A stretch of DNA of 64,000 bases from an uncultured Bacilli bacterium (GTDB lineage Bacteria > Bacillota_I > Bacilli_A > RF39 > UBA660), in contig CAJTRV010000004.1 in assembly GCA_910578855.1 (NCBI GenBank), positions 5,551 to 69,550 of the forward strand, read 5' to 3'. This document shows positions 48,991 to 62,896 of the stretch, piece by piece. Position 1 is the first letter of the stretch. Each line of letters opens with the position of its first letter. The notes under the pieces were generated by a model. It was not told the origin of the DNA, searched no databases, and was given only the letters and a program-made list of their open reading frames with translations. The position numbers and the translations under genes are program-made.

Positions 48991-51900
48991 CAGTCTTTTT
49001 TTGATGCTAATTCTTGATAAGATTGAAAGCGTCGCATCGCATCTTGTTTATTTTGTTCAAACAATTCTTTCGCATGATCAGGATTAACTGTTTCTAACAT
49101 TTGATAGCGAAGCTGACTTCGTAAATAGTTCTCATACTGATCAAAATCGACATTTTTATAATCTAGAAGGAATTTTCCGGTCTCAGGATGCCGATGAAAG
49201 ATTGGGAAATAGCCACAAGTAACCGCCAGTTTTTCACTCGCAATACTCTCCTGCATTCCCCCAATTAGTCCATGGGCAATACATGGGGCATAAGCAATGA
49301 TAATAGATGGCCCATCATAATTAGCAGCCTCCCTCATCACCCGAATTACCTGTTGCATATTGCCACCCAGTGATACTTGGGCAACATAAACATGAGGATA
49401 CATAAGCGCAATTGCTGCCAAATCTTTCTTAGCTAGTTTCTTTCCACTCGAAGTAAATGAGGCAATCGTTCCTTTGGGACTTGCTTTACTAGACTGCCCG
49501 CCAGTATTAGAATAAACTTCAGTATCTAAAACGAGAATGTTGATATTATCACTCCGTGATAAAACATGATCAATCCCACTATATCCAATGTCGTAGGCCC
49601 AACCATCCCCGCCGATACACCAAACTGTCTTGGTCAAAAAATCACTTCGATAATTTTCTAACTCACTTGGTAACTTCATAGTACTTAACGTATGATATAA
49701 TTCTTTTACTTGATCCAAATCATGATGTTGTTCAAGCCATGTTTCAAAAATAGGATATTCCCTTTGATATTTCGCTACCAGTGCTCGCATCCGTTCTTGT
49801 TTTAGCTGTTCTGACAATAAAATTCCATACCCATATTCAGCATTGTCTTCAAACAATGACGATCCCCAGGATACTTGATATGGTAATGTCGGAACACTGG
49901 CTCCATAAATAGACGAGCACCCAGTCGCATTGGCAATCACGAGTTGCTCCCCAAATAACTGTGTTAATAATTTAATATAGGCTGGTTCCCCACAGCCAGC
50001 ACAAGCCCCACAGAATTCAAATTTAGGCTTGCGAAATTGACTTCCCTTGATCGTATATTTATTCCCTACAGGTTTTTCTGTAACATGTTGATTTACATAA
50101 TCAAATATTTCCTGCTCATGATTTCGCTTGCTATCGTCTAAACTAATTTCAGTAAGAGCTTTCGGAATCGCAGGACATGTTTTAATACATAACCCACACC
50201 CGGTACAGTTTTGAATCGATACAGCCAACAAATAGTAATAGTCGGATAAATCTGGTGTTTTGGCCTTTATTGCACGCTGTTTTACAATATCTGGAGCTTC
50301 TTGATACTCTGCCTCTGTTAATAGAAAAGGTCGAATGACACTATGCGGACAGACAAAGGAACATTGATTACATTGAATACAATTGCTGCTGATCCACTCG
50401 GGAACCAAGGCACTGATTCCCCGTTTCATCGTCTCCTTTTCATCATAGTAGAATTTTCCATCGGCCCCTTTAAGAAATGCGCTAGTTGGAAGAAGATTGG
50501 CAGTTCTATTTTGGAGAGCGTTGATCACACTCTTATTGGCAAGATCTAATATTTCAGCATCATCAGTGTCATATATACTAATTCTTGTGATATAGCTAAG
50601 GGCTTGATCAAGCGCTTGAATATTGGCCTCGACAACTTTATGACCTTTTTTATAAAAGTGATGTTGAATATACTGGATTAATTCCTGTTTCATCTCTTCA
50701 TGAGAAAAATCTTCTAATAAAGACAGAATTGCACTTTCCATAATCATACTAATTTTATCTTTTAGACCTAACTTTCGAGCTAGTGCATAAGCATGAATGG
50801 TGTAGCAAGTAATATTTTGATCCCGTAATAACTGCTTATCTTTTGGTGTTAATAAATGATTCAATTCTTCTTCCGTCTTAGCCGTATTAATTAAGACAAT
50901 TCCATTTTTACAAATTCCATGAAAACAATCAAAGTCATCAAGGTAAGTATCTTTACTAATAACCACAATCCGTGGATGTTCAACATAATAAGTTGATCGA
51001 ATAGGATGCTCACTAATTCGTAGATGACTAATCGTTACCCCACCTGATTTTTTAGAATCATATTGGAAATAGCCTTGAATATACTGATTTTTACTAGTTC
51101 CGATTAATTTTAACAAGGACTTACTAGCGCTGATCATTCCGTCACTACCATATCCATAAATGCGCATTTCATGCGATGATGAAATATAAAAATGATGATC
51201 AACTGGCAAACTCAAATGGGTCACATCATCGATAATCCCCACCGTAAAGTTATGAAATGGTTGCTTTCGTAAAAAATCATAGACCGCCTTGATATCAGCC
51301 GGAGTTGTATTTTTACTAGATAATCCATAACGTCCTCCATAAACAGAAATGTTATCTCCTAAGACACTCTTAATATCTAAATATAACGGTTCCCCTACAC
51401 TTCCACTTTCTTTGGTACGATCTAAGACTGCAATTCTTTGAACTGTGGTCGGCAATACTTGTAATAGATACTTCGGACTAAATGGGCGATATAGGTGAAC
51501 GATGATCAACCCTACTTGATATCCTTGTTCATTTAAGACATCAATCGTTTCCTTGATCGTCTCTGTCACCGACCCCATTGCCACGATAATATGCTCAGCA
51601 ACACTCGATCCATAGTATTCAAATGGCTGATAATGCGTCCCCTTAATCCGATTGATTTTAGTCATGTAATCGTTAACTATATCAGGAATTGCATCATATG
51701 CTTGATTTCGTGCTTCCGTAGCTTGGAAGTAAATATCATCATTCTGATTGGTTCCAATAGTATAAGGGGTCTCTCCTAATAAAGAATGAGTTCTAAATTT
51801 CTCTACCTTTTTCTTATTCAATAATGGAGCTAGATCATCACGTTCTAATAAAGTCACAGTAGATAATTCATGACTGGTTCGAAAGCCATCAAAAAAGTGA

Positions 51901-52397
51901 AGAAAGGGCATCCCCGCCTCGATCGCCGCTAAATGACTAACCGCCGCCATATCGCCTGCTTCTTCTGGATTAGATGAAGAAAGCATGGCAAAGCCAGTCA
52001 TTCTTGTCGCATAGACATCTTGATGATCCCCTAAAATACTAAGAGCATGAGTCGATAAACTACGGGCTGCTACATGCATTACACAAGGTAGCATTTCCCC
52101 GGCTATCTTATACATGTTGGGTATCATCAACAATAGACCTTGACTTGCTGTATAGGTAACTCCTAAAGTACCAGCTTGTAAAGCCCCATGCAAAACCCCG
52201 GCAGCCCCTGCTTCACTTTGCATCTCGACTACATGGACCTCGGTATCAAACAAATTTTTCATATTCTGACTGGCAAACGCCTCGACATGCTCGGCCATCG
52301 GACTCGACGGTGTAATCGGATATATGCTAGCAAGTTCTGTAAATAAATAAGAGACCCTTGCTACCGCCTCATTACCATCTATCATTAATTTTTTCAT
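48987..52397 (-). CDS. nifJ: Pyruvate:ferredoxin (flavodoxin) oxidoreductase
   Basis: 1136 aa with two 4Fe-4S motifs (CIQCNQCSFVCPH and CTGCGLCIKTCP) and a TPP-binding motif GGDGWAYDIG. Confidence 0.92.
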   Translation of the reverse strand: MKKLMIDGNEAVARVSYLFTELASIYPITPSSPMAEHVEAFASQNMKNLFDTEVHVVEMQSEAGAAGVLHGALQAGTLGVTYTASQGLLLMIPNMYKIAGEMLPCVMHVAARSLSTHALSILGDHQDVYATRMTGFAMLSSSNPEEAGDMAAVSHLAAIEAGMPFLHFFDGFRTSHELSTVTLLERDDLAPLLNKKKVEKFRTHSLLGETPYTIGTNQNDDIYFQATEARNQAYDAIPDIVNDYMTKINRIKGTHYQPFEYYGSSVAEHIIVAMGSVTETIKETIDVLNEQGYQVGLIIVHLYRPFSPKYLLQVLPTTVQRIAVLDRTKESGSVGEPLYLDIKSVLGDNISVYGGRYGLSSKNTTPADIKAVYDFLRKQPFHNFTVGIIDDVTHLSLPVDHHFYISSSHEMRIYGYGSDGMISASKSLLKLIGTSKNQYIQGYFQYDSKKSGGVTISHLRISEHPIRSTYYVEHPRIVVISKDTYLDDFDCFHGICKNGIVLINTAKTEEELNHLLTPKDKQLLRDQNITCYTIHAYALARKLGLKDKISMIMESAILSLLEDFSHEEMKQELIQYIQHHFYKKGHKVVEANIQALDQALSYITRISIYDTDDAEILDLANKSVINALQNRTANLLPTSAFLKGADGKFYYDEKETMKRGISALVPEWISSNCIQCNQCSFVCPHSVIRPFLLTEAEYQEAPDIVKQRAIKAKTPDLSDYYYLLAVSIQNCTGCGLCIKTCPAIPKALTEISLDDSKRNHEQEIFDYVNQHVTEKPVGNKYTIKGSQFRKPKFEFCGACAGCGEPAYIKLLTQLFGEQLVIANATGCSSIYGASVPTLPYQVSWGSSLFEDNAEYGYGILLSEQLKQERMRALVAKYQREYPIFETWLEQHHDLDQVKELYHTLSTMKLPSELENYRSDFLTKTVWCIGGDGWAYDIGYSGIDHVLSRSDNINILVLDTEVYSNTGGQSSKASPKGTIASFTSSGKKLAKKDLAAIALMYPHVYVAQVSLGGNMQQVIRVMREAANYDGPSIIIAYAPCIAHGLIGGMQESIASEKLAVTCGYFPIFHRHPETGKFLLDYKNVDFDQYENYLRSQLRYQMLETVNPDHAKELFEQNKQDAMRRFQSYQELASKKDC

Positions 52398-52491
52398 AAG
52401 ATCCTCCTTTTAAGCATACGAAAGAAACATTCTATCTATTAATATTTTATCACAAAATTCTATATTATGGGCCCTGGAAACAAGATTTACC

Positions 52492-52517
52492 AAAAAAGAG
52501 TAGCATCATCGCTACTT
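52492..52517 (-). terminator. Rho-independent terminator after sigH
   Basis: On minus the sequence reads agtagc-gatgat-gctact followed by cttttttgg. Confidence 0.6.
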
Positions 52518-52524
52518 TCAATAA

Positions 52525-53151
52525 TTACTTTGTATCTAATTCATCTAAAATATTACGCATTTTCCCTTTGATCCGTTGTAAAGCATTATCGATAGACTTC
52601 GTATTCTTATCTAAAATGCTGGCAATTTCATCATAGGAAAAATGGTTAAGTTTTAATTCAAATACCTGCAATTCAAGATCAGTTAACTGATCTTTGATTA
52701 AATTGGATAAGATATGTTCCCGTTCACTATTTAATAAAACATGTTCTGGATCCGTAGTTTCATCACGTAATAGATAATCAGCATAGACCATTTCATTATC
52801 ATCACCACGCACTTCAAAAGGAACTGATTCATTGAGAATTTTATGTTTCATTCGACGGGTGCTAACAGCTGCAGTAATGATTTTCCGTTCAATACACGTT
52901 TTAGCAAACGTATAAAAAGTAATATTCTTTTTTTCATTAAAGTGATCAATCGCTTTCGATAGACCTAACATCCCTTCTTGAATCAAATCATTGAGTTCGA
53001 GGCCACCATTTTCACAATAAGGAAGCATTTTCTTCGCAAAATTAACAATTAATGGTTTATATTTATCGTATAAAAGAGTTTCTGCTTCATCACTATGTTC
53101 TGCAATCGCATAATTTACCAACTCATAATCATTAAGATCTTTATAATTCAT
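52525..53151 (-). CDS. sigH: RNA polymerase sigma factor SigH
   Basis: 208 aa. DLIQEGMLGLSKAIDHF...FYTFAKTCIERKIITAAVSTRRMKHKILN parallels B. subtilis SigH region 2. The synteny mrnC-rlmB-sigH also supports the call. Confidence 0.8.
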   Translation of the reverse strand: MNYKDLNDYELVNYAIAEHSDEAETLLYDKYKPLIVNFAKKMLPYCENGGLELNDLIQEGMLGLSKAIDHFNEKKNITFYTFAKTCIERKIITAAVSTRRMKHKILNESVPFEVRGDDNEMVYADYLLRDETTDPEHVLLNSEREHILSNLIKDQLTDLELQVFELKLNHFSYDEIASILDKNTKSIDNALQRIKGKMRNILDELDTK

Positions 53152-53157
53152 AAGAAC

Positions 53158-53853
53158 CTACTTTCTAAGTCTTACTGCTTCATAAATAATAATCCCGGCA
53201 GCCACCGAGGCATTTAGACTATTGGTCTTACCCTTCATAGGAATACTGGCAATAAAATCACAGTTTTCTCTGACCATTCGCGCCAAACCGTCACCTTCAT
53301 TTCCTATCACAATCGCACATTTTCCACGATAATCAATATCGCTATAGTCTTCACCCTCCATATCTGTTCCAACAATCCAAAACCCCTGTTTCTTTAAATA
53401 ACGCATCGTATTATTTAGATTGGTTACCTGGGCTATTTTCATATAATCAATCGCCCCCGTACTCACTTTAATAACCGTTGGGGTTACCCCAACAGATCGA
53501 TGTTCTGGAATAATAATTCCATCCACTCCAGCCGCTTCACAAGTACGAATAATCGCACCTAAGTTATGAGGATCTTCTAAATGATCGAGAATGACAATGA
53601 GTGGGTTGTCCCCTTGAATTAGGGTTTCTATTTCATCATACTGAAAATCAGGAACTTGCAAAACAATTCCTTGATGATTTCCTTTAACCATTTGATCCAA
53701 CTGTCTTTTTTCGACATAGCGAATTGGAGCTGCAGTCGTGGCAAGGGCACCTATGACTTCGTTATCCCGAAATTGTTTGGATAAGTAAACCCGTTTTATT
53801 TTCTTGTTCGTCTTAATTGTTTCTAATGCGACATTTTTTCCATAGATATACAT
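53158..53853 (-). CDS. rlmB: 23S rRNA (guanosine-2'-O)-methyltransferase, SpoU/TrmH family (RlmB)
   Basis: 231 aa with motifs DPHNLGAIIRT, VIGNEGDGL and SLNASVAAGI. Confidence 0.85.
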   Translation of the reverse strand: MYIYGKNVALETIKTNKKIKRVYLSKQFRDNEVIGALATTAAPIRYVEKRQLDQMVKGNHQGIVLQVPDFQYDEIETLIQGDNPLIVILDHLEDPHNLGAIIRTCEAAGVDGIIIPEHRSVGVTPTVIKVSTGAIDYMKIAQVTNLNNTMRYLKKQGFWIVGTDMEGEDYSDIDYRGKCAIVIGNEGDGLARMVRENCDFIASIPMKGKTNSLNASVAAGIIIYEAVRLRK

Positions 53854-54230
53854 AATTTTTCTCCTAACATTATTTCCATAATTTCTTGAATTCGATTAAA
53901 GTGACCATTTAGATAATGATACCCAATTAATGCTTCTAAACCAGTTGATTCTTTATAAGTTACAATGTCAGTATGCTTAGGATGACGAGATCCTTTATGA
54001 TTCCTGGCACGTTTCACAATCTGAATCTCTTCGGTTGTTAATGATTCCTGATCTAGTAACATTTTTAAATAACGACTTTGGGCTTTGGCACTAACATATT
54101 GAACAGCTTCTTTCTGAAGATCATTCACTTTACAAAGACCTTTTTTTAATAACAGAGTCCGAATAACAACTTCATAAATACTATCACCAACATAAGCCAA
54201 CGCCAAAACATTTAGGCAATCTGTTTTCAT
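53823..54230 (-). CDS. mrnC: Mini-ribonuclease 3
   Basis: 135 aa with motif LALAYVGDSIYE, which resembles the RNase III signature. It lies upstream of rlmB. Confidence 0.8.
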   Translation of the reverse strand: MKTDCLNVLALAYVGDSIYEVVIRTLLLKKGLCKVNDLQKEAVQYVSAKAQSRYLKMLLDQESLTTEEIQIVKRARNHKGSRHPKHTDIVTYKESTGLEALIGYHYLNGHFNRIQEIMEIMLGEKLCISMEKMSH

Positions 54231-55108
54231 ACAAGTTCCTCAATTCGATCAAAGGTAATTCCTTTTATTAGACCACTTTTCATATCGTTTAAAATGAGAT
54301 TCATCACGCGGTCATAATCAATTTCCCCACCCTGAATCATACATCCTCGACGTTTACCAATGATATCCAACGTGTTAACCATATCTTCTTCATCAATAGT
54401 CGTAATTCCATAACGTGATTCTAACTCCTGAGGATAATAAGTATATAGCATGTTCAAAATGTAACAGACCACATCATAAATAGGCAATACTTCCTCTTTA
54501 ATTGCCGTTAAACTTGCGAGATTAAGGGCAATAGTTTGATCATCAAACTTCGGCCATAGTACCCCTGGTGAGTCTAACAATTCAAGACGCTGATTGATGC
54601 GAATCCAATCCAATGACTTCGTCACTCCAGGACGGTTTCCAACATTGGCAACCTTTTTTCCAACTAAGCGATTGATCAATGTGCTCTTTCCAACATTGGG
54701 AATCCCGACAACAAGGACCCGAATACGTCTTGATTTCATTCCTCTAGCAATCATATCATCCATCTTATCTTGCATCATCGCTTCAGTCTTTTTCACTATT
54801 CCGGTTGTACTTTGTTGATGCTCTAAATCAACCCCCATTACTTGATAACCTAGTTGTTCATAATACCGAATCCAGCGCTCTGTTTCTTTTTTATCACATA
54901 GATCCATCTTGGTCATAATTAACAACTTCGGCTTATTTCCAATAATCGATTCAATATCTTGAATCTTTGATGAGTATGGCATCCGAGCATCGATTACTTC
55001 ATAAACAACATCAATAACACTCATTTTTTCCTTCATAATTCGCTTGGCTTTCGCCATGTGACCGGGATACCAGTTGATTGTCGTATTTTGTCCTTTATTG
55101 TCGTTCAT
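54227..55108 (-). CDS. rbgA: Ribosome biogenesis GTPase A (YlqF/RbgA), circularly permuted GTPase
   Basis: The start is at MNDNKGQNTTINWYPGHMAKAKR (ATG 55108, SD aaggaag). The G4-like MTKMDL precedes the G1 motif GIPNVGKSTLIN. The longer track ORF to 55156 lacks an SD. Confidence 0.88.
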   Translation of the reverse strand: MNDNKGQNTTINWYPGHMAKAKRIMKEKMSVIDVVYEVIDARMPYSSKIQDIESIIGNKPKLLIMTKMDLCDKKETERWIRYYEQLGYQVMGVDLEHQQSTTGIVKKTEAMMQDKMDDMIARGMKSRRIRVLVVGIPNVGKSTLINRLVGKKVANVGNRPGVTKSLDWIRINQRLELLDSPGVLWPKFDDQTIALNLASLTAIKEEVLPIYDVVCYILNMLYTYYPQELESRYGITTIDEEDMVNTLDIIGKRRGCMIQGGEIDYDRVMNLILNDMKSGLIKGITFDRIEELV

Positions 55109-55123
55109 TTGTTTCACTTCCTT
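55070..55123 (-). repeat. Junction A: native rbgA SD plus first 13 codons, the chromosomal member of the repeat family that bounds the cassettes
   Basis: The minus strand reads aaggaagtgaaacaaATGAACGACAATAAAGGACAAAATACGACAATCAACTGG and then continues into rbgA (TATCCCGGTCAC). It aligns with copies B and C up to AACTGG (plus ccagtt at 55070-55075). Confidence 0.7.
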
Positions 55124-55559
55124 TAGATTTATTTTTATATTTAACATATTCTTCAATTTTTTTATTATAGTTCTTTAAATCTTCTACAAATTGAGGCTTA
55201 AATTGATTTAAATAATCAATGATTAAATCAGCATATTCATCAATATTTTCATCATCAACTATATCTATGAGATATTTATTGATTCCTTTTTTAGTATTTA
55301 TTCTTTCTACATAAAAGGCTAACAAATTAGTTGGACCTATTTTTTCTTTTGCTGATAAAACAATAGAAATCAAATTTTCTCTTGATGCATAATATCTCGG
55401 TTTAAATCCATTTGACCTAGAAAATAATATCAAAGTACAACCAATAAATAATTTATCTGAACCATTTTTAGGAAATGTTTTGTTTGCAAATTCAATTAAA
55501 CTTTCTGTATTACCCTGTTCGTAATCATCATATAGTTCCATTAAAATTCTATTTATCAT
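55095..55559 (-). CDS. Hypothetical protein (cassette 1 cargo)
   Basis: 154 aa with SD gaggag upstream of ATG 55559. The last 13 codons read through the rbgA SD and start codon. No motif is recognised. Confidence 0.5.
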   Translation of the reverse strand: MINRILMELYDDYEQGNTESLIEFANKTFPKNGSDKLFIGCTLILFSRSNGFKPRYYASRENLISIVLSAKEKIGPTNLLAFYVERINTKKGINKYLIDIVDDENIDEYADLIIDYLNQFKPQFVEDLKNYNKKIEEYVKYKNKSKGSETNERQ

Positions 55560-55569
55560 TTTATCTCCT

Positions 55570-55845
55570 CTATTTATATAGACTTTTTATAACTCTATTA
55601 ATGCAATCTTTGGCACTTCTGTTATTATTTGAAAAACTAATTTTTACTAATGTCCCATTTACTTTAAAAGCATATGGATTCTTTGTGGAAGCAATAAAAT
55701 CCAATATTCTTTCATTACTAGGTTTTCTTCTATCTATTTTTATATTTGTTATTTCATCCACATCTTCTAATTTTACATCATCAAGATTTACATTTCTACA
55801 TCTTTCTAATTTTTCTGCTAATTCTTTAATATTATATTTATTCAT
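55570..55845 (-). CDS. Small DUF6870-like protein (cassette 1)
   Basis: The start is at MNKYNIKELAEK (ATG 55845, SD ggagtg). The pattern ...DVDEITNIKIDRRKPSNERILDFIASTKNPYAFKVNGTLVKISFS resembles small proteins I recall from Firmicute mobile elements. That assignment is from memory. Confidence 0.5.
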   Translation of the reverse strand: MNKYNIKELAEKLERCRNVNLDDVKLEDVDEITNIKIDRRKPSNERILDFIASTKNPYAFKVNGTLVKISFSNNNRSAKDCINRVIKSLYK

Positions 55846-55927
55846 AAAATCACACTCCATATTAATTATAAAATCAAATACAATTAATGTTAAATGTGCA
55901 ATTTTTTATTATAAATGATAATCTTTA

Positions 55928-56953
55928 CTAATCTTTATTATTTTCTGAAGTTTCTAATAATTTTGTACTTTCAATAAATTTATCGAAGTCAGAAATATAT
56001 AATTGGTCTTGTTTTTCCTTAAACTTATCATACTCTTTATATGCAAGTTCTTGAGCCACTTTATGAGATATTTTTCCTGCATCATGCAGTATTTCTTGCC
56101 CATTAAATTGTAAAAACGCATCCAATTTTTCTACCCAATCTTTCATTGTCATCGCATTATGATTTTCTGCTTGTAATTCAGCATAATCTAAATACATAGT
56201 AACTATTCTATTTAAGTTTTTTAATTCTTTTTCTGTCAAATAATTTTTAGCAATATCAACATCATATTTATAAATCGTTCCATCAGGAGAACCTGTCCAA
56301 TTTGTTAAACCCATATTGTCTTTTTCTGAATCAACTCTATTATAAATAATCTCTGCAGCAGTATTACCAGTGACTGAATAATGAAGTTTATTCTGCACAG
56401 TTTTAAAAAAAGTTTTAGTGATTTCTGAATCTTTATCATAATCAACACTACAAGATGAATATATATCTGTTATCTTTTGGTAAAATCTTCTTTCACTAGA
56501 ACGAATATTTCTAATTCTTTCTAGTGTTCTTTCAAAATAATCTTCTCCAAAAATATAATTTGGATTTTTTAATCTCTCGTCATCCATAACAACGCCAGTA
56601 ATTAAGTATTCTTTTAGAACTTTTGTTGCCCATATTCTAAATTGCGTTGCTTTTTTGGAATTAACTCTATAACCTACAGCAATAATCATATCTAAATTGT
56701 ATATTTTAGATTTTCTTCCACCTGTACTTTCGTCGGAAATTCCGACAGAAGTTTCTTCCTTAAGTTCACCACTATTTAATATATTATTAATATGTTCTGT
56801 TATGGTACTTCTACCTACTCCAAATAATTCAGCAATCAAATTTTGCGTCAACCAAATATCATTATTAATTAATAATACATTCACTTTGATATCATTATTA
56901 TCATCACGATATATTAAAAAGTCGTGGGTAGTTATTTGTAAATTATTTTTCAT
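55928..56953 (-). CDS. RhuM-family protein (N-terminal HTH, conserved RhuM core)
   Basis: 341 aa with motifs WLTQNLIAELFGVGRSTITEHINNI, YNLDMIIAVGYRVNSKKATQFRIWATKVLKEYL, SERRFYQKITDIY and MYLDYAELQA. Confidence 0.75.
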   Translation of the reverse strand: MKNNLQITTHDFLIYRDDNNDIKVNVLLINNDIWLTQNLIAELFGVGRSTITEHINNILNSGELKEETSVGISDESTGGRKSKIYNLDMIIAVGYRVNSKKATQFRIWATKVLKEYLITGVVMDDERLKNPNYIFGEDYFERTLERIRNIRSSERRFYQKITDIYSSCSVDYDKDSEITKTFFKTVQNKLHYSVTGNTAAEIIYNRVDSEKDNMGLTNWTGSPDGTIYKYDVDIAKNYLTEKELKNLNRIVTMYLDYAELQAENHNAMTMKDWVEKLDAFLQFNGQEILHDAGKISHKVAQELAYKEYDKFKEKQDQLYISDFDKFIESTKLLETSENNKD

Positions 56954-57209
56954 TTATTTTCACCGCTTTCTTATGTTCTTAAATGTCGTAATCACCTATC
57001 TAATTTCTATTATAAATAGCGCAAAAATTACTATATTTTTATGAATTTTTATTGTTTTTTATCATTTTTTAATGAAAACATGCAAGATATAAATTGGATA
57101 GTTTCCTTTATTTATAAGGGTTTAAGGGTGTTCTTAATTAAATCGTAATCAACCAGTTTATGTTTGCCTGATTTTGTCGATTTTCATTATTCATTTATTT
57201 CACTTCCTT
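56954..57209 (-). repeat. Cassette-boundary repeat B, containing a decoy rbgA 5' end
   Basis: Positions 57107-57209 match 59039-59141 at 99 of 103 nt; the rest is roughly 80% identical by eye. It contains SD, ATG (57194) and MNNENRQNQANINWLITI* (57138-57194), the core ccagtt at 57153-57158, and two cgtaatc motifs at 56987 and 57144. Confidence 0.8.
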
Positions 57210-57704
57210 CAATTCAATATTATTTTCTAATAAAACGCTTTCTAATGTTTCATTTTCGTTTATAATATATAAGTTCTCATAATTTCTTTGCAAACAATCC
57301 TCATAGAATGGAACAAATACATTTCCCAAGCCACTAATAAAACTTTCATTATTACCTCGATTTATACACTTTCTCTTTACATCTTCCCAATTATTAATAT
57401 TAGGATATGCTATACTGTATTTAATATTATTTTTATCGAAATAATCGAAGTGTTCTGGTTTTAATTGAACTAAAACAACATCATATTCCTTTATAGCCAT
57501 TCGAATGGCTTTATAGTAATTCTTTGGCCATTCACTATTTACTTCTCTTTTCGTTCCTTTTCTTGCTTCAACAGGTACATTTTCAAGATTAGTATTAATA
57601 TATTTAAAATTACTCGATTCTAAATCAATTACATTCCTATATTTTTTACCCAAAATGCTTTTTCCACACGTTGCAAATCCTGCAATTATTATTCCCTTAG
57701 CCAT
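57195..57704 (-). CDS. P-loop NTPase/kinase-like protein (cassette 2 cargo)
   Basis: 169 aa with Walker A IIIAGFATCGKS. The C-terminal KEVK and stop are encoded by the repeated rbgA SD segment, and the TAA abuts the decoy ATG (TAAATG). Confidence 0.55.
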   Translation of the reverse strand: MAKGIIIAGFATCGKSILGKKYRNVIDLESSNFKYINTNLENVPVEARKGTKREVNSEWPKNYYKAIRMAIKEYDVVLVQLKPEHFDYFDKNNIKYSIAYPNINNWEDVKRKCINRGNNESFISGLGNVFVPFYEDCLQRNYENLYIINENETLESVLLENNIELKEVK

Positions 57705-57993
57705 TATTTACCTCTTGTCTATATAAATTTTCTAAAATTTTAGTTAAACAATCATCTGCAGTTAAATTACTATTTTCTGAAAATCTTATTCTAACTAATT
57801 TCCCATTGACTTTAAATATATATGGGTTCTTTTTCTTCATTACAAACGCTAATATTCTTTCATTACTAGGTTTTCTTCTATCTATTTTTATATCTGTTAT
57901 TTCATCCACATCTTCTAATTTTACATCGTCAAGATTTACATTTCTACATCTCTCTAATTTTTCTGCTAATTCTTTAATATTATGTTTATTCAT
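57697..57993 (-). CDS. Small DUF6870-like protein (cassette 2)
   Basis: The start is at MNKHNIKELAEK (ATG 57993). The first 143 nt match the cassette 1 paralog at 139 of 143 positions, and the C-terminal half is diverged. It overlaps the next gene by 8 nt. Confidence 0.5.
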   Translation of the reverse strand: MNKHNIKELAEKLERCRNVNLDDVKLEDVDEITDIKIDRRKPSNERILAFVMKKKNPYIFKVNGKLVRIRFSENSNLTADDCLTKILENLYRQEVNNG

Positions 57994-58056
57994 ATTATAC
58001 CTTCTTTCTATAATAATTTTATTATTTAGAAAGAAATAACACAAATGTGCAAAATA

Positions 58057-58899
58057 CTAGATATTATCTTTTTCTCCTAATAGTTTTATCTTTTCTGCAT
58101 TATTAAGTATATCAAGTTGATACTTAGCAATGCTACTTAATATTTCAAATCTTTCTTCTTTGCTTTTTCCTTCTTTAATTAGTTCTGCATTATGTGATTC
58201 TAAATTAGATAATACTGTTAATTCATTTATCGATGCATAATCTCTAACATTTGAGTTTTTTGCTAAATTCGGATTAAGTTCTCTCCATCTTTTAGCAGTT
58301 GTGTTAAATAAGGCAACATTTAAAATATCTGCTTCTTCTGCATACTTTAACCATTCTCTATCTTTATAATAATCATTATCAGGTAATATATAATTTTTAA
58401 TTGCATCTGTATGAATAAGATAATTATTTTTGGTTAAGATTCTTTTTATATCCCATTCCCTATTTTGATTTTCTAACTCTTTTAGTCTTTCAAATTCTTT
58501 TATCAAATATAGTTTAAAAACCGGACTAATAGAAGATGCAAATTCAAAAGCAATGTCTTTATGAGCATAAGTTCCACCATATTTTCCACGCTTCGAATAT
58601 ATCCCAATTGCATTTGTTTTACTACACCATTCTGTAACACTTAGTGTAAAAGTATGAAGTCCTGCCTCACTTTTAAACCCGTCGAATTCGACGGAATTAA
58701 AATTTGGATTGTAAATTGACTCCCAAGTACCTAAAAATTCTAAAGTAATTCTATTTCTTAACCAATTTCTGATAACATCATCTGATGTAGATTTTCCTTC
58801 TTTAAACTTGGTAAAATCAGAAATACAAATATAATCGCTATCATTTATATTTGTTATGTTCACTTTAATATTTTGAACTTCAATTATTTTGTTTGGCAT
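58057..58899 (-). CDS. KilA-N domain protein
   Basis: 280 aa. ICISDFTKFKEG...IRNWLRNRITLEFLGTWE...GGTYAHKDIAFEFASSISP has the KilA-N layout. Confidence 0.7.
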   Translation of the reverse strand: MPNKIIEVQNIKVNITNINDSDYICISDFTKFKEGKSTSDDVIRNWLRNRITLEFLGTWESIYNPNFNSVEFDGFKSEAGLHTFTLSVTEWCSKTNAIGIYSKRGKYGGTYAHKDIAFEFASSISPVFKLYLIKEFERLKELENQNREWDIKRILTKNNYLIHTDAIKNYILPDNDYYKDREWLKYAEEADILNVALFNTTAKRWRELNPNLAKNSNVRDYASINELTVLSNLESHNAELIKEGKSKEERFEILSSIAKYQLDILNNAEKIKLLGEKDNI

Positions 58900-59141
58900 A
58901 TATTCGCCTCTTTTCCATGTCCTTAAAATTCGTAATCACCTATCTAATTCTTATAATAAATAATACCAAAATTATTAGTTTTTATATTTTTAATTATTTT
59001 TTAATGAAAATATGCAAGATCTAATCTAGATAATTTTCTTTATTTATAAGGGTTTAATGGTATTCTTAATTAAATCGTAATCAGCCAGTTTATGTTTGCC
59101 TGATTTTGTCGATTTTCATTATTCATTTGTTTCACTTCCTT
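58900..59141 (-). repeat. Cassette-boundary repeat C, containing a decoy rbgA 5' end
   Basis: It is homologous to repeat B throughout. It contains SD, ATG (59126) and MNNENRQNQANINWLITI* (59070-59126), the core ccagtt at 59085-59090, and cgtaatc motifs at 58931 and 59076. Confidence 0.8.
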
Positions 59142-59147
59142 TATTAT

Positions 59148-59321
59148 TTAACATTGAGAATTTAAAAAATTTGCAATTTGTTCTAAATTTTTAAATATTT
59201 TTCCATCATTTCTTATAACTATTCCTCTTGCACCATATCTCATTCTAGGCTCATTCATTTCAATCATACTTTCGCCTAAATCTTCATCAGTTATTTTACA
59301 TATTAATTTCATTAATATCAT
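59148..59321 (-). pseudogene. Possible 5' fragment of a NUDIX-type hydrolase gene (57 codons)
   Basis: My translation is MILMKLICKITDEDLGESMIEMNEPRMRYGARGIVIRNDGKIFKNLEQIANFLNSQC*. The RxGARGIVIxxDGKI stretch resembles the strand preceding a Nudix box, but the box itself is absent. Confidence 0.25.
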
Positions 59322-59338
59322 CTCGCTTTCATTTTATA

Positions 59339-59863
59339 TTACAACTTGTATTCTTTTATCTCACAATTCTTCAATCCACGATTTAAAAACCAACCATCAT
59401 TAATGCCATCAAAATATGCACTAAAAGCTTTTGAAACACCACTATGTGCAACAATTAAAACACTTTTATAATTTTGAGTTTTAAGTTCATCTAAAAAATT
59501 ATATATTCTATCAAAAAAGTCTTTTATATTTTCAGAGGTTCCATATTGAATTGTTGTATTATAATTCCAATATTCATCACGATTAGTTATTTCAAGAGGT
59601 TTACCACTTAAATCTCCACAACTTCTTTCTTGAATTCTATCATCAATAATAATTTCATTATTATTAGCATTAATAATATTAGCTGTGTGTTTTGCCCTAA
59701 TTAAAGGTGAAGAAATTATAATATCAAAGTTTATATCTTTAATTTTGTCTCTTAATTCTTCTGCTTGACTTATTCCAAGTTCAGTTAAATCTTCATCTTT
59801 TGTATTATATTGTTTCAATGCATTATGAGGTACTTCACCATGTCTTACTATATATATTTTCAT
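59339..59863 (-). CDS. Histidine phosphatase family protein (phosphoglycerate-mutase-like)
   Basis: 174 aa with the RHG motif IYIVRHGEVPHN, plus SSPLIRAKHTA and VAHSG. Confidence 0.75.
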   Translation of the reverse strand: MKIYIVRHGEVPHNALKQYNTKDEDLTELGISQAEELRDKIKDINFDIIISSPLIRAKHTANIINANNNEIIIDDRIQERSCGDLSGKPLEITNRDEYWNYNTTIQYGTSENIKDFFDRIYNFLDELKTQNYKSVLIVAHSGVSKAFSAYFDGINDGWFLNRGLKNCEIKEYKL

Positions 59864-59989
59864 TTATTGACTCCTTTTTTATAGAATTTTTATAGTAACA
59901 TTTTATCATCGAGGATATATATTTATTTTATTATTGATACCATTATATTAAAATCATACTCATTTTTACTATTTTTATCTGTTTCTAAG

Positions 59990-61254
59990 GTTATATGATT
60001 ATTCTCTGTTTTTCCTTTAAAATAAAGCAAATCAGCTATTTTAAATTGTCGTGTCATTTCGCGTACACAAGCCAGGAAGTCAGGCCCATATGTTCTTTAT
60101 TTGAATCAACTCTATTATATATAATTTCTGCTGTTTGTTTTGATACAGCAAAATGCATTTTGTTTTGTACTTTTTTAAAAAATTCAATTGATATTGGAGA
60201 TTTAAAATCATAGTCAATACTTGTAGCATATATATCTGTTATTTTTTGATAAAATCGCCTTTCTGATAACCTTATTTCTCTAATTTCTTCTAATAATTTT
60301 TCAAAATAATCTTCTCCAAAAATATAATTTGGATTTTTTTATCTTTCGTCATCCATAACAGCATCATTAATTAGATATTCTTTTAAAACCTTTGTTGCCC
60401 ATATTTTAAATTCTGTTGCTTTTTTAGAATTGATCCTGTATCCAACTACAATAATTACATCTAAATTATATATTTTGGTTTTATATTTTTTACCATCAGA
60501 GGCAGTTATCGAGGATTCCTCGATAACTGAATCCTGATTTAATGCATTATCTTTAGAAATTGCAGATTTTTTTATTTCCTTTTCATATAAATCTCTAGCA
60601 CCTTTAGCAACTCCTCCGCCTCTTTTTGCTACATTTAAATTTTCTTTTAAACCTTGCGGATGTTCTTCTCTTGCAATATCTCGTGTTGCAATCTCTCCTA
60701 TATTTGTTCACTAGCTTTCATTCCAGACCACCCCTTATAGATTTCATTGGTTTGGTTATGCCTCCTTCTTTCCAAACATCTGTAAGTTTAAATCTATCTA
60801 CAACCCCCATTAGTCTTGCCTTAATCCATTCATCAGAGTACCCTTTATTACGATAATAATTTACTGCTCTATTTATTGCAATTTCAGGATCAAATACTTC
60901 ATCAATCCTCTCACTACCAAGACTCGCTAACCAAACTTTAAATGGTTCGGCCTTAGGGCTAGAAACTGATTCAATTAATCTTAATATTCCATTTGTATCT
61001 AAAGTATCAGTTATACGATTTTTACCATCCCGGGCCTCCATTTTCAACTGCACGATTTCTTCGTGCAGTTCACTTCCTTCATAAATTAATCTTCTTTTTA
61101 AACCGCTCCAATAATTTCTTGGGATTTTTGCTTCAGTTAATACACTTATTACATCAGCAACGCTAAAATAATACTCTTCTTTTTCACTATCCCAAATGCT
61201 TCTTATTTCTTTACCTTCAAATAAATTTGATATTGTTTCTAATTTGTTGTTCAA
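59990..61254 (-). pseudogene. Bro-N / RhuM-core chimeric gene, inactivated
   Basis: The N-terminal Bro-N-like ORF (TTG 61254 to 60718) reads FEGKEIRSIWDSEKEEYYFSVADVISVL. A frameshift near 60715 follows. The RhuM core then continues in another frame (YNLDVIIVVGYRINSKKATEFKIWATKVLKEYL). An in-frame TAA at 60339-60341 sits where the intact paralog has TTA (DER-L-KNPN). The 3' end is truncated near 60054. Confidence 0.7.
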
Positions 61255-61396
61255 ATATAACACCTCTTTTCTATGGTCTTAAATGCCGTAATCATCTTTC
61301 TAATTCTTAAATAAAAATATGGAAAATTTAAAATCGTACAACCTCCTTATTTATAGGGATTTACTTAAGAGTGCAATAAATCGTAATCAAACAGTT
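61255..61396 (-). repeat. Cassette-boundary repeat D, the outermost, degenerate copy with no rbgA decoy
   Basis: It shares with B and C the blocks cttaaatgccgtaatca, tttataggg/tttataaggg and aaatcgtaatcaaacagtt. Homology stops at acagtt (61391-61396). Beyond that a different short frame, MRQEKRIAKVIKKVFHQSELTV*, reads into the core. Confidence 0.6.
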
Positions 61397-61503
61397 AATT
61401 CTGACTGATGAAAAACTTTTTTGATTACTTTCGCTATTCTTTTTTCTTGTCTCATTTTTCCCTTTTGATATATATCCATATTTTTCACTTTCTTTTCAAT
61501 AGT

Positions 61504-62064
61504 TTAAAGTTTTTTACCCATTACAATGGGTCTATCATCATAAATATGAATTCTGTTATTTATATCACTAATTAATGCAACAAGTTTTCTAGGATTTTCT
61601 ACTCCTTCAAAACTCATTCCATTTTTTATTTGTTCAATTAAATTATTAGCATAAAAATTAAAAGATATATCTCCATAATTATTTTTTTCTCTTGCAATTC
61701 CAATATGTTCTATATCAGATATATTTTCTATCCTAAATCCATTTTTAGAATTATATAGAGCTATCCTTTTATTGGTAATAAAATATTCATTATTTTTCTT
61801 TTTATATTTTAAGAATATATTATAAACTAATCCATAAATTAAACAAATTGTTAATATGCCCAAAGTAAGAAAAATTATCAAAATTTCAAAATTTAGTATT
61901 TCCCCACTTTTTATACCTATTATAATTAATATCCAAAATAATAACAATACGGCAAAACCTAATAAAAATCTACCATATTGTTTACTAGTCTTACTAACGT
62001 TTGAAACACCATAGAATAATATTTTTTCATTCTCTTCCAATTTATTTATAAACTCATTTTTCAT
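61504..62064 (-). CDS. Membrane protein with bacterial PH-like (YdbT/bPH_2-type) domain
   Basis: 186 aa. EKILFYG is followed by two TM segments and then YFITNKRIALYN, as in bPH_2 proteins. Confidence 0.45.
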   Translation of the reverse strand: MKNEFINKLEENEKILFYGVSNVSKTSKQYGRFLLGFAVLLLFWILIIIGIKSGEILNFEILIIFLTLGILTICLIYGLVYNIFLKYKKKNNEYFITNKRIALYNSKNGFRIENISDIEHIGIAREKNNYGDISFNFYANNLIEQIKNGMSFEGVENPRKLVALISDINNRIHIYDDRPIVMGKKL

Positions 62065-62201
62065 TTATCTCTCTCCTTACAATTTATTAAATATAATACC
62101 ATTTAATAAAAGAGAATTCCTTTATTAAAATCATTCTAGTTTTATCCACTATAGATTCCTCATAAGATAACCATTTATTCATTTCGAAAATGCATTTATT
62201 T

Positions 62202-62840
62202 TTATTTAAAGATTACATATGGAATGCCCATTTTATGATAAACATCATAAGCTCGTGGCCACGAGAACATTCGGGCAATTAATAAATTATAAAGTTCATC
62301 AAACATGATGATAGAACACAATGTAATTGAAAGCATTAAAAATAATTTTTTATTCATCCGTTTCGCAAGAAAAAAACACATAGGAATTATGACATACATC
62401 AACAATAAACTAGATAACCCAAAGAACATAACACTTCTTAAACAAACAAAACCATGAATGTTTCCAAAGTTTAAAATTTCCGAATTATAATCCCAACAAC
62501 GCATTCCATTTCCAATGATATACATGCCCAAACCTGATATATATTCGAGAATCCCAGTTGCAAAAAAACTAATTAAAAATACCCAGAATGGTTTTTTTCG
62601 ATGCTTGTAAGTTAATAGATAAATCATAATTGAACCTGTCGCATATATATTAATCCATGGTAAGAAATTACCACCTCGCCAATAAAATTGTTTCATACCA
62701 CCATTAAAATAATAAAATATAAATTCATAGATCCAACCAAAAATTCCGGTGATAACGATTAACAGACAACAAATTCCTAGCATCGTCCATTTATCAAACG
62801 AATGATTATTTTCTATATAATGTTTATACCATTTCTTCAT
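62202..62840 (-). CDS. Polytopic membrane protein (possibly the putative ABC-transporter type IV / DUF1113 family)
   Basis: 212 aa with about 6 TM segments and an N-terminal GIFGWIYEFIFYYF. The family call is from memory. Confidence 0.4.
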   Translation of the reverse strand: MKKWYKHYIENNHSFDKWTMLGICCLLIVITGIFGWIYEFIFYYFNGGMKQFYWRGGNFLPWINIYATGSIMIYLLTYKHRKKPFWVFLISFFATGILEYISGLGMYIIGNGMRCWDYNSEILNFGNIHGFVCLRSVMFFGLSSLLLMYVIIPMCFFLAKRMNKKLFLMLSITLCSIIMFDELYNLLIARMFSWPRAYDVYHKMGIPYVIFK

Positions 62841-62896
62841 ACTACTAAACTCCTACCTCATTATATCGTAAACAAAATATTAACTTAACAATTGTC

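What the first reader, a model, noticed from the sequence alone, without database searches (positions are those of the whole stretch)
55570..57993. Mosaic paralogs: 97% identical 5' halves, diverged 3' halves, with a sharp breakpoint
**Seen in sequence.**
- The two small DUF6870-like genes match at 139 of 143 nt from their ATG (55703-55845 against 57851-57993). This gives 2 amino-acid differences in 47.
- Identity collapses abruptly 3' of that point.
- The C-terminal halves are DFIASTKNPYAFKVNGTLVKISFSNNNRSAKDCINRVIKSLYK and AFVMKKKNPYIFKVNGKLVRIRFSENSNLTADDCLTKILENLYRQEVNNG, about half identical.
- The genes upstream of them (RhuM against KilA-N) are unrelated.

**Inference.**
- A conserved-head, variable-tail pattern with a sharp boundary suggests recent gene conversion or homologous-recombination shuffling between cassettes.
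- This is the logic used by polymorphic toxin/immunity and specificity-subunit switching loci.
- The conserved half may interact with a common partner, and the variable half with the cassette-specific cargo.
Basis: partly seen in the sequence, partly recalled or inferred. Interest (0 to 1): 0.5.

Follow-up and report, generated by a model that had tools for sequence, protein, structure and literature searches.

The report
Recombinant gene in a cassette array
Two neighbouring small genes share a near-identical front half because one is a recombinant, stitched together where two mobile gene cassettes crossed over; the cassettes form a stack of candidate anti-phage genes inserted one after another at the start of the essential gene rbgA.

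Summary
The two DUF6870 genes match at 139 of 143 nt from the ATG, and identity falls to about 67% after codon 48.

Gene A (55570-55845) is a chimera.
- Its head, upstream spacer, RhuM gene and promoter region match RhuM cassettes of other gut MAG species at 86-100%.
- Its tail and the downstream orf154 match a different DUF6870 lineage at 90-100%.
- The switch lies between nt 132 and 153. This is one of the two longest identity blocks (20 nt) between the parental lineages (informative sites 38:0 against 3:30, p = 6e-17).

Neighbour B was not needed as donor: nine heads from other genomes are closer to A.

A step in synonymous diversity at codon 48 also appears across 26 genes that carry this head. 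The cause is recombination, not a regulatory RNA and not protein-level "variable tail" selection.

The context is a tandem array on the minus strand, upstream of rbgA. Each cassette holds a promoter region with two GATTACGA boxes, one phage-defence-candidate gene (RhuM, KilA-N, Bro-N or YhcG), DUF6870, a small enzyme, and a spare rbgA 5' end. Sister strains and thousands of contigs carry DUF6870 followed by two large serine recombinases at the same rbgA site. I read the array as an SCC-like pile-up of cassettes.

The parts
55570..55845 (-). DUF6870 gene A (91 aa), a chimera. Codons 1 to about 44-48 come from the widespread 'c0' head lineage. Codons from about 51 to 91 come from a minor DUF6870 lineage.
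   Evidence: Pfam; protein halves; three-way nucleotide alignment; informative sites 38:0 against 3:30.
55693..55713 (-). Crossover interval (gene nt 133-153, coding ..RILDFI..). This is one of the two 20-nt blocks of exact identity, the longest between the two parental lineages.
   Evidence: last donor-type site at nt 132, first resident-type site at nt 153; identity run nt 133-152.
55703..55845 (-). Head of A, the 143-nt block that is 97% identical to 57851-57993.
57697..57993 (-). DUF6870 gene B (98 aa), with a major-lineage head and tail. Its stop overlaps the start of the downstream P-loop gene.
55928..56953 (-). RhuM-family gene (341 aa), PADLOC phage-defence candidate PDC-S05. It is co-inherited with the head of A.
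   Evidence: Pfam E = 4e-109; PADLOC E = 5e-140; 86-100% nt identity to RhuM cassettes of five other MAG species.
55095..55559 (-). orf154, the cargo gene co-inherited with the tail of A.
   Evidence: 90-100% nt identity to L042 and L001, where it follows a minor-lineage DUF6870.
58057..58899 (-). KilA-N gene (280 aa), PADLOC candidate PDC-S22.
   Evidence: mostly above 90% (up to 100%) nt identity in 50-nt windows across most MAGs compared.
57195..57704 (-). P-loop protein (169 aa), cargo of the KilA-N cassette.
   Evidence: PHROG 4182.
56942..57158 (-). Junction element J1: two GATTACGA boxes (57143-57150 and 56986-56993) flanking a promoter-like region upstream of RhuM.
57153..57211 (-). 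Displaced rbgA 5' end (RBS, ATG, MNNENRQNQANINW), broken after AACTGG. This is the right end of the KilA-N cassette.
58886..59090 (-). Junction element J2 upstream of KilA-N (boxes at 59075-59082 and 58930-58937).
59085..59143 (-). Second displaced rbgA 5' end.
59148..59863 (-). Histidine-phosphatase cargo gene plus a 57-aa remnant of a NUDIX gene.
60080..61263 (-). Oldest cassette: a Bro-N gene (PDC-S13) truncated at about aa 173 and joined to a RhuM pseudogene fragment.
61242..61460 (-). Leftmost junction J3, with an older rbgA-5'-like remnant followed by TTGATTACGATTT.
54227..55108 (-). rbgA. The integration point is after codon 13 (..ATCAACTGG|TATCCC, window about 55070). Sister strains become identical to the window from 55075-55079 onward.

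Best explanation
Gene A is the product of a single homologous crossover inside DUF6870.
- The crossover joined the left part of a RhuM-type cassette (junction element J1, RhuM, an 86-nt spacer and the DUF6870 head) to the right part of a resident cassette (DUF6870 tail of a different lineage, orf154 and the rbgA 5' end).
- It resolved in one of the two longest stretches of exact identity between the two diverged DUF6870 lineages, the 20 nt that encode RILDFI.
- A resembles its neighbour B only because both carry the same young, widely spread head haplotype.

DUF6870 is the one gene shared by all cassettes of the array, so it supplies the homology that re-assorts upstream defence-candidate genes with downstream cargo. 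(The chimera is shown. DUF6870 acting as the shared homology arm is inferred.)

The array itself is best explained by serial site-specific integration at codon 13 of rbgA, with each element bringing a replacement rbgA 5' end. The recombinases are probably large serine recombinases supplied in cis or in trans. DUF6870 belongs to the recombination module of these elements and may be a directionality or accessory factor. (The array anatomy and strain variation are shown. The recombinase assignment and the DUF6870 role are inferred.)

The confidence of 0.8 refers to the chimera-by-crossover statement. I put the serine-recombinase array model at about 0.6 and the directionality-factor role of DUF6870 at about 0.2.
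For: **Chimera**
- Four database proteins share 88-93% of A's C-terminal half but only 54-58% of its N-terminal half.
- Nucleotide informative sites: 38 donor against 0 resident in the head, 3 against 30 in the tail, Fisher p = 5.7e-17. The switch lies between nt 132 and 153, inside a 20-nt identity block.
- Flank profile: positions -1350 to +150 match the RhuM cassettes of L008, L009, L010, L023 and L065 at 86-100%. Positions +150 to +700 match L042 and L001 at 90-100%.
- The same array sequence occurs in independent assemblies from two mouse-gut samples.

**Population**
- 360 gene pairs have heads at least 93% identical, against 55 for tails. 94 pairs have head at least 0.93 with tail at most 0.82, against 2 pairs the other way round.
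- Change point after codon 48 in the non-circular test.

**Array**
- 58 junctions in dozens of MAG species read RBS-ATG-(about 12 rbgA-like codons)-AACTGG|TTGATTACGATTT.
- GATTACGA occurs 197 times forward and 5 times reverse.
- Cassette DNA is mostly above 90% identical between hosts whose RbgA proteins are mostly 45-65% identical.
- The array is 25.7% GC against 34.5% for the rest of the window.
- Sister strains with an identical MrnC protein differ exactly upstream of rbgA nt 30-34.

**Recombinase**
- DUF6870-LSR570-LSR528-rbgA is seen in L102 and L103 and in contigs of P0131 and P0177 (1709 and 2580 index blocks), with junction GTAATCAACTGG|TAYCC.
- Cassettes that carry a large serine recombinase are bounded by the same boxes in L021 and L047, with one such box beside the recombinase gene in L061 and L063.
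Against: - No recombinase gene lies in this window's array, so the mobility of these particular cassettes is not shown.
- The left ends of the recombinase-bearing ICE-like elements were not recovered. Their sharing of the TTGATTACGA arm therefore rests only on the small recombinase-bearing cassettes.
- Why one head haplotype sits behind three or four unrelated upstream genes with different spacers is not fully explained by crossovers inside DUF6870 alone.
- The population step at codon 48 could reflect a few inherited ancestral events rather than a recurrent hot spot.
- The true minor-lineage parent of A's tail is only 91-93% identical to the best available relatives.
- All the data come from metagenome assemblies.
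Confidence: 0.8

Rival explanations
1. Recent intra-array gene conversion copied the head of B onto A (or the reverse), homogenising the two paralogs in this genome.
For: - The two genes lie 2.1 kb apart in direct orientation and share 139/143 nt.
- Three other within-array pairs also have heads more alike than tails (L015, L014, L028).
Against: - Nine heads from other MAGs are closer to A than B is (L006 99.3%, L007 98.6%, B 96.5%).
- With B as donor, 3 head sites do not fit. With L006 as donor, all 38 fit.
- A's head is continuous with its own spacer and RhuM gene, as in five other species.
- Heads of this type are no more alike within arrays (0.93) than between genomes (0.94).
Confidence: 0.07
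2. The head is held constant by a function at the nucleotide level that overlaps the first 143 nt of the gene. Candidates are a regulatory RNA, an antisense transcript or ORF, a protein-binding site or a recombination site.
For: - Synonymous sites are nearly invariant in 26-30 heads from different species.
- Antisense ORFs are open over both heads.
- The boundary is sharp.
Against: - No Rfam hit at E up to 1.
- Folding z-scores of 0 to +0.9 on both strands.
- Heads of other lineages are only about 73% identical in nucleotides and 54-58% in protein.
- In the other 47 genes third-position diversity is 0.29, close to the 0.36 of their tails.
- The upstream KilA-N and RhuM genes are just as conserved as the head. 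This fits recent common descent rather than a special constraint.
- The open antisense ORFs follow from a purine-rich sense strand.
Confidence: 0.06
3. Functional modularity maintained by selection. The head binds a partner common to all cassettes and the tail is matched to the cassette's cargo, so head/tail chimeras are selected specificity variants, as in polymorphic toxin or specificity-subunit loci.
For: - DUF6870 always lies between one of four alternative large genes and a very variable downstream enzyme.
- Tail identity rises by 0.077 when the downstream gene is the same, and by only 0.003 when the upstream family is the same.
- DUF6870 and the cargo are tightly packed or overlapping.
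Against: - The tail-cargo association is what physical linkage predicts.
- Non-synonymous divergence is equal in both halves (0.14).
- Within the common head group, tails differ mostly at synonymous sites (pN 0.09, pS 0.42).
- In the recombinase-linked subfamily the variable part is residues 1-27, not the tail.
- There is no toxin or immunity domain, and no inverted repeats or invertase.
Confidence: 0.1
4. The chimera is an assembly artefact caused by the repeated head.
For: One scaffold (L105) has an N-gap exactly over the head of A, so the repeat does disturb short-read assembly.
Against: - The junction lies where the parental lineages share only 20 identical bases, shorter than common assembly k-mers.
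- Identical sequence is found in assemblies of two samples made by different pipelines (L101, L104, L111).
- The exact protein is on record from 4 further contigs (P0001).
- No minor-lineage head exists in the window that could have been mis-joined.
Confidence: 0.02

Closest known systems
Staphylococcal cassette chromosome (SCC/SCCmec) composite islands at rlmH (orfX)
   Same: - Elements integrate site-specifically at the end of a conserved ribosome-related gene.
- They pile up in tandem, separated by repeated attachment-site sequences.
- They are moved by a pair of adjacent large serine recombinases.
- Many units lack recombinase genes.

The comparison with SCC rests on my own knowledge. The recombinase pair here is shown.
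   Different: - The target is the 5' end of rbgA, and each unit must carry a spare RBS and about 13 codons.
- The recombinases are only distant relatives of CcrB/CcrC (NCBIfam scores of 66-98 bits against cut-offs of 900).
- Cargo is defence-candidate genes plus small enzymes.
- A conserved DUF6870 gene is present in nearly every unit.
- Mobility has not been tested.
ICEs integrating in the 5' end of rbgA (Tn5253 and related streptococcal ICEs)
   Same: The target is the same gene end, and an intact coding sequence is restored by a duplicated target segment (PMC6079316, PMC4701971).
   Different: - Those elements use a tyrosine integrase with Xis and an 83-bp attB that covers the first 20 nt of the coding sequence.
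- Here the break is after nt 39 and the only recombinases seen are large serine recombinases.
- The window holds short units of about 2 kb, not a conjugative element.
Accretion of integrative elements and cis-mobilisable elements (CIMEs) at one att site
   Same: There are tandem units bounded by att-like repeats, internal junctions of attP type, and units without their own integrase. The comparison rests on my own knowledge.
   Different: Here the pattern recurs in dozens of species with a stereotyped unit architecture: junction element, defence candidate, DUF6870, cargo, rbgA 5' end.
Chromosomal integron cassette arrays
   Same: There is a one-orientation array of small, strain-variable cassettes. 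Cargo is rich in GNAT acetyltransferases, NUDIX and other small enzymes.
   Different: - No IntI tyrosine recombinase, attI or attC hairpins.
- Each cassette has its own promoter-like region.
- Insertion is into a coding sequence.
PADLOC phage-defence candidates PDC-S05 (RhuM), PDC-S22 (KilA-N), PDC-S13 (Bro-N) and PDC-S02 (YhcG/DUF1016)
   Same: The large gene of each cassette matches one of these models at E = 6e-69 to 5e-140. A PDC-S05 representative protected E. coli against T7, T5 and T4 (10.1101/2024.09.26.614923).
   Different: These candidates were defined as single genes embedded in BREX, DISARM or type I RM loci (10.1101/2024.01.29.577857). Here they sit in an rbgA-linked array and are followed by DUF6870.

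Membership tests
Pfam DUF6870 (PF21757) | Significant match to the family HMM above the gathering score. | tested here: met
   A scores 71.1 bits and B 57.9 bits against a cut-off of 24.4. All 224 listed database relatives carry PF21757.
Recombinant (mosaic) allele | Two segments with different nearest relatives, and a statistically supported single switch point. | tested here: met
   Informative sites 38:0 against 3:30, Fisher p = 5.7e-17, switch at nt 132-153. The flanks agree.
Intra-genomic gene conversion between the two paralogs | The paralog in the same genome is the closest relative of the converted tract. | tested here: not met
   B ranks tenth among heads closest to A.
Polymorphic toxin / immunity cassette locus | A long conserved N-terminal delivery region joined to a variable C-terminal toxin domain, followed by a cognate immunity gene. 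| tested here: not met
   The proteins are 91-98 aa with no toxin or immunity domain. The downstream genes are ordinary small enzymes.
Polymorphic toxin / immunity cassette locus | Diversifying (non-synonymous) change concentrated in the variable part. | tested here: not met
   Non-synonymous divergence is 0.14 in both halves. Tail pN/pS is about 0.2-0.3.
Specificity-subunit switching (shufflon or hsdS-type) | Inverted repeats within the coding sequences plus a nearby invertase, giving reversible swaps. | tested here: not met
   The copies are direct repeats. No recombinase was seen among the array's ORFs, and a tblastn with the L102 serine recombinases found nothing anywhere in the window; tyrosine recombinases were not searched for outside the array.
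Integron | An intI gene with attI, and cassettes bounded by attC hairpins. | tested here: not met
   No tyrosine integrase was seen in the arrays that were checked (the census is incomplete). The junctions are direct boxes and have no conserved fold.
SCC-like cassette chromosome island | Site-specific insertion at one end of a conserved housekeeping gene, with repeated att sequences between tandem units. | tested here: met
   58 junctions with AACTGG|TTGATTACGA and rbgA-like arms. Strain-level breakpoints fall at rbgA nt 30-34.
SCC-like cassette chromosome island | Large serine recombinase(s) encoded by at least some units at the same site. | tested here: met
   Two recombinase genes (Resolvase + Recombinase + Zn_ribbon_recom domains) lie directly upstream of rbgA in a sister strain and in many hosts. 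Recombinase-bearing cassettes sit between the same boxes.
SCC-like cassette chromosome island | The recombinases are CcrA/B/C orthologues. | tested here: not met
   Best NCBIfam scores are 66-98 bits against equivalog cut-offs of 900. They are large serine recombinases, but not Ccr.
SCC-like cassette chromosome island | Demonstrated excision and circularisation of units. | not testable with these tools
   This needs PCR or long-read evidence for circular junctions and empty sites.
Tn5253-type ICE at rbgA | Integration in the rbgA 5' end that restores the coding sequence. | tested here: met
   compared with PMC6079316.
Tn5253-type ICE at rbgA | Tyrosine integrase with Xis, and a conjugation module. 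| tested here: not met
   None is present in the window array. The related large elements carry serine recombinases.
PADLOC PDC-S05 / S22 / S13 | Match to the PADLOC family models. | tested here: met
   E = 5e-140, 7e-116 and 6e-69.
PADLOC PDC-S05 / S22 / S13 | Anti-phage activity of these particular genes. | not testable with these tools
   Only a distant PDC-S05 representative has been tested (10.1101/2024.09.26.614923).

The most novel reading that the evidence does not exclude
Low-GC gut Bacillota carry a previously undescribed, serine-recombinase-driven cassette platform at codon 13 of rbgA, comparable to an SCC or an integron. It captures and reshuffles anti-phage genes. DUF6870, now a protein of unknown function with no structural match, would be its cassette-borne recombination directionality or accessory factor, and would double as the homology arm for cassette re-assortment.
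Probability: 0.3. Interest if true: 0.75.

Novelty: new variant of a known kind. Interest (0 to 1): 0.55.

Why it matters
- It turns an odd pair of paralogs into a dated, mapped recombination event, and shows how cassettes in a defence-gene array are re-assorted.
- It points to a strain-variable integration hot spot at an essential gene, seen here in dozens of species-level genomes of uncultured gut bacteria.
- It links four untested phage-defence-candidate families to a common mobile scaffold.
- It gives DUF6870 a testable role next to large serine recombinases. These sit on elements found in thousands of gut contigs, some of which carry a vanG-like gene set.
- The att sequences and recombinase pairs could also be of practical interest as new site-specific integration tools.

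Tried and rejected
- **Known RNA families.** Rfam scan of 52000-64000 at E up to 1 found nothing.
- **RNA structure in the head.** No structure on either strand.
- **Conserved fold in the junction element.** None: consensus energy -0.7 kcal/mol and no covariation.
- **Other profile libraries for DUF6870.** NCBIfam and PADLOC gave nothing meaningful, and PHROGs only one weak hit for B (E = 5e-4).
- **Literature.** No paper in the library mentions DUF6870 or PF21757.
- **Viral contigs.** A scan for the junction 17-mer gave 19 hits, of which only one (L083) is a real relative. No phage carrying an attP form was found.
- **Exact look-up of the window's RbgA.** Not on record. MrnC was used instead.
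- **Diversity-generating retroelement (template/variable repeat pair).** Considered and dropped: the four A/B mismatches are T/C and A/G transitions with no adenine-only pattern, and no reverse transcriptase is nearby.
- **Error.** My first RbgA query was out of frame. It was corrected.
- **Circularity.** My first change-point test was partly circular, because the cluster was defined on codons 1-48. It was repeated with selection on codons 1-30 only.
Full report
**1. The observation**

Two minus-strand genes, A (55570-55845, 91 aa from the ATG at 55845) and B (57697-57993, 98 aa), both match Pfam DUF6870.
- BLASTN gives 139/143 identical bases from one base before the ATG, 55703-55845 against 57851-57993.
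- After codon 48, nucleotide identity falls to 67% and protein identity to 49%.
- The proportion of synonymous differences is 0.12 in the head and 0.49 in the tail.
- There is no third copy in the window.

The description is correct.

**2. Gene A is a chimera**

Among the 120 closest database proteins, the family is well conserved along its whole length. B follows the consensus in both halves, whereas A departs from it only in the C-terminal half.
- Four proteins (P0087, P0099, P0110, P0119) match A's tail at 88-93% but its head at only 54-58%.
- Contigs that carry P0110 show the native setting of this minor lineage: a RhuM fragment, DUF6870, then a 154-aa gene that is 93% identical in DNA to window orf154.
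- A three-way nucleotide alignment shows A following the major lineage up to about nt 150 and the minor lineage afterwards.
- With L006 as major-lineage representative and L029 as minor-lineage representative, informative sites split 38:0 in the head and 3:30 in the tail (Fisher p = 5.7e-17).
- The switch lies between nt 132 and 153. That interval is a 20-nt run of exact identity between the two lineages, tied for the longest.
- The flanks agree. From the junction element through RhuM, the 86-nt spacer and the head, the window is 86-100% identical to the RhuM cassettes of five other species-level MAGs. From the tail through orf154 to rbgA, it is 90-100% identical to L042 and L001.

The event was therefore one homologous crossover that joined two cassette halves, not a two-sided patch.

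**3. The neighbour B is not the donor**

- Nine heads from other genomes are closer to A than B is.
- With B as donor, three head sites do not fit.
- Heads of this type are as similar between genomes (0.94) as within arrays (0.93).

**4. Population pattern**

I extracted 80 full DUF6870 genes from 76 loci of species-representative genomes plus related contigs.
- One head haplotype group holds 30 genes at 92% identity or more. It sits behind KilA-N, RhuM and Bro-N genes alike and is combined with at least 16 tail types.
- 360 pairs have heads at least 93% identical, against 55 pairs for tails.
- To avoid circularity, I selected genes on codons 1-30 only. Third-position diversity stays at 0.118 for codons 31-47 and jumps to 0.344 for codons 48-64, with the best change point after codon 48.
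- First- and second-position diversity does not differ significantly between the halves.
- The remaining 47 genes show no such step (0.29 against 0.36). Heads of different lineages are only about 73% identical.
- In the recombinase-linked subfamily it is residues 1-27 that vary, while 28-91 are nearly invariant.

The step therefore reflects a young head haplotype recombined onto old tails. It is neither a nucleotide-level constraint nor a protein-level "variable tail". No Rfam family matches and no RNA structure overlaps the head.

**5. The surroundings: a cassette array at rbgA**

Repeats upstream of RhuM, KilA-N and Bro-N align as a junction element. Immediately before each junction element lies a copy of the rbgA ribosome-binding site, its ATG and about 13 codons, broken after AACTGG and followed by TTGATTACGATTT.
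- The same junction occurs 58 times in dozens of species.
- GATTACGA occurs 197 times on the coding strand and 5 times on the other, in 1.07 Mb. It usually comes in pairs 157 nt apart.
- In 56 of the 76 genome-scan loci, rbgA lies downstream of DUF6870, with mrnC following where it was detected.
- The gene directly upstream of DUF6870 is RhuM (17 cases), Bro-N (16), KilA-N (15) or YhcG/DUF1016 (11), together 59 of 75.
- All four match PADLOC phage-defence candidates: PDC-S05, S13, S22 and S02. These were defined by embedding in other defence loci (10.1101/2024.01.29.577857). A PDC-S05 representative has shown anti-phage activity (10.1101/2024.09.26.614923).
- The downstream genes are very variable small enzymes: ASCH, HAD, histidine phosphatase, GNAT, NUDIX, deaminase, HD and others.
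- Cassette DNA is mostly above 90% identical between hosts whose RbgA proteins are mostly 45-65% identical.
- The array is 25.7% GC against 34.5% for the rest of the window.

The cassettes are therefore horizontally mobile.

**6. Strain variation and the recombinase**

The window is identical over the 14 kb compared (50000-64000) to a mouse-gut contig. Contigs with an identical MrnC protein differ immediately upstream of rbgA.
- Some carry the window's array.
- Others carry a histidine phosphatase or a RhuM fragment plus a 211-aa gene.
- L102 and L103 carry a PemK toxin, a resolvase fragment, DUF6870 and two large serine recombinases.
- Identity with the window resumes at 55075-55079, which is rbgA nt 30-34.

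The DUF6870 variants of that last type (P0131, P0177) are on record in 1709 and 2580 index blocks. In nine of the ten places read, across varied hosts, they show the order DUF6870, recombinase of 569-570 aa, recombinase of 528 aa; rbgA follows directly in eight (the ninth, L114, is not at rbgA, and in L120 a second element interrupts the first recombinase gene). These elements also carry a vanG-like gene set (VanW, D-Ala-D-Ala ligase, VanY, alanine racemase), ABC transporters or conjugation-type ATPases. Their right junction is GTAATCAACTGG|TAYCC. Remnants of their rbgA-like arms occur inside arrays of other species. Smaller cassettes that carry a serine recombinase lie between two such boxes in L021 and L047; in L063 the recombinase-bearing stretch runs from a box to rbgA itself, and in L061 a box follows the recombinase gene. 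The recombinases are not Ccr orthologues.

**7. Mechanism**

*Shown*
- The chimera, its breakpoint and its two parental cassette types.
- The stereotyped cassette anatomy.
- The common break in rbgA.
- The strain-level variability.
- The association of DUF6870 with serine recombinase pairs at this site.

*Inferred*
- Elements integrate at codon 13 of rbgA through large serine recombinases, and each brings a replacement 5' end.
- Later arrivals push earlier ones upstream, which leaves attP-like internal junctions.
- Units without a recombinase persist or move in trans.
- Because DUF6870 (and the junction element) are the only sequences shared by all units, homologous recombination between incoming and resident units exchanges the defence-candidate gene together with the head. 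The crossover tends to resolve in the most conserved stretch, ERILDF.
- DUF6870 may act as a directionality or accessory factor. This rests only on its position immediately upstream of the recombinase genes. Its predicted fold has no match.

**8. Comparison with known systems**

- The rbgA 5' end is a known target of streptococcal ICEs that use tyrosine integrases (PMC4701971, PMC6079316).
- Tandem accretion with recombinase-less units and paired serine recombinases is the logic of SCC islands (my own knowledge).
- The cargo resembles that of chromosomal integrons, but intI and attC are absent.
- I found no paper in the searchable library that describes DUF6870, or a paired-serine-recombinase element or a cassette array at rbgA.

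**9. Verdict**

The finding is real, and its core inference of recombination between cassettes is right. The more elaborate analogies are not. The mosaic itself is ordinary for mobile DNA. The interest lies in the array and in the link between DUF6870 and the recombinases.

Noticed in passing
window 56942-57158, 58886-59090, 61242-61400: The junction element has two direct GATTACGA boxes about 157 nt apart, with conserved CCCTTATAAATAAAG and ATCTTGCATATTTTCATTAAAAA between them. It has no conserved RNA fold. It may be recombinase or regulator binding sites plus the cassette promoter.
   Followed up: partly
window 60080-61263: A Bro-N gene is truncated at about aa 173 and joined to a RhuM pseudogene fragment (79% nt identity to 56432-56713). 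This is a decayed older cassette.
   Followed up: partly
window 59148-59321: The 57-aa ORF is the 5' remnant of a NUDIX gene that is intact after the same histidine phosphatase gene in L001 (6001-6540).
   Followed up: partly
window about 61388-61460: The leftmost junction keeps an rbgA 5' remnant (..AAAAGTTTTTCATCAGTCAGAATTAACTG|TTTGATTACG) that resembles the functional rbgA 5' end of sister strain L107.
   Followed up: partly
window 55109-62100 against 1-52000: The array is 25.7% GC while the rest of the window is 34.5% GC, which is consistent with foreign origin.
   Followed up: yes
window 55865-55893 (minus strand): A near-consensus promoter-like site (TTAACA-17-TATAAT, 11/12) lies in the RhuM-DUF6870 spacer. 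Gene A may therefore have its own promoter.
   Followed up: no
L083 5847-7536 (IMG/VR UViG_3300006149_000131): A phage tail-gene contig ends with a RhuM C-terminal fragment, an APH-like kinase and a 216-nt junction-element relative (77%). It may be a prophage abutting or carrying a cassette.
   Followed up: partly
L047 13870-16628: A reverse transcriptase ORF (550 aa) lies next to a serine recombinase fragment inside an array.
   Followed up: no
L120 9365-13161: A second element, with its own pair of serine recombinases and phage lysis genes, is inserted into the first recombinase gene just downstream of DUF6870.
   Followed up: no
L117, L118, L121 1-4534: The recombinase-bearing rbgA elements of the P0177 type carry a vanG-like gene set: VanW, D-Ala-D-Ala ligase, VanY, an acyltransferase, alanine racemase and VanZ.
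   Followed up: no
L105 1853-1926: A scaffold gap of Ns falls exactly over the head of gene A. The 143-nt repeat breaks short-read assemblies.
   Followed up: yes
window 55475-55918 (+) and 57806-58039 (+): Long antisense ORFs run over both DUF6870 genes. A purine-rich sense strand explains them, and there is no evidence that they code.
   Followed up: partly
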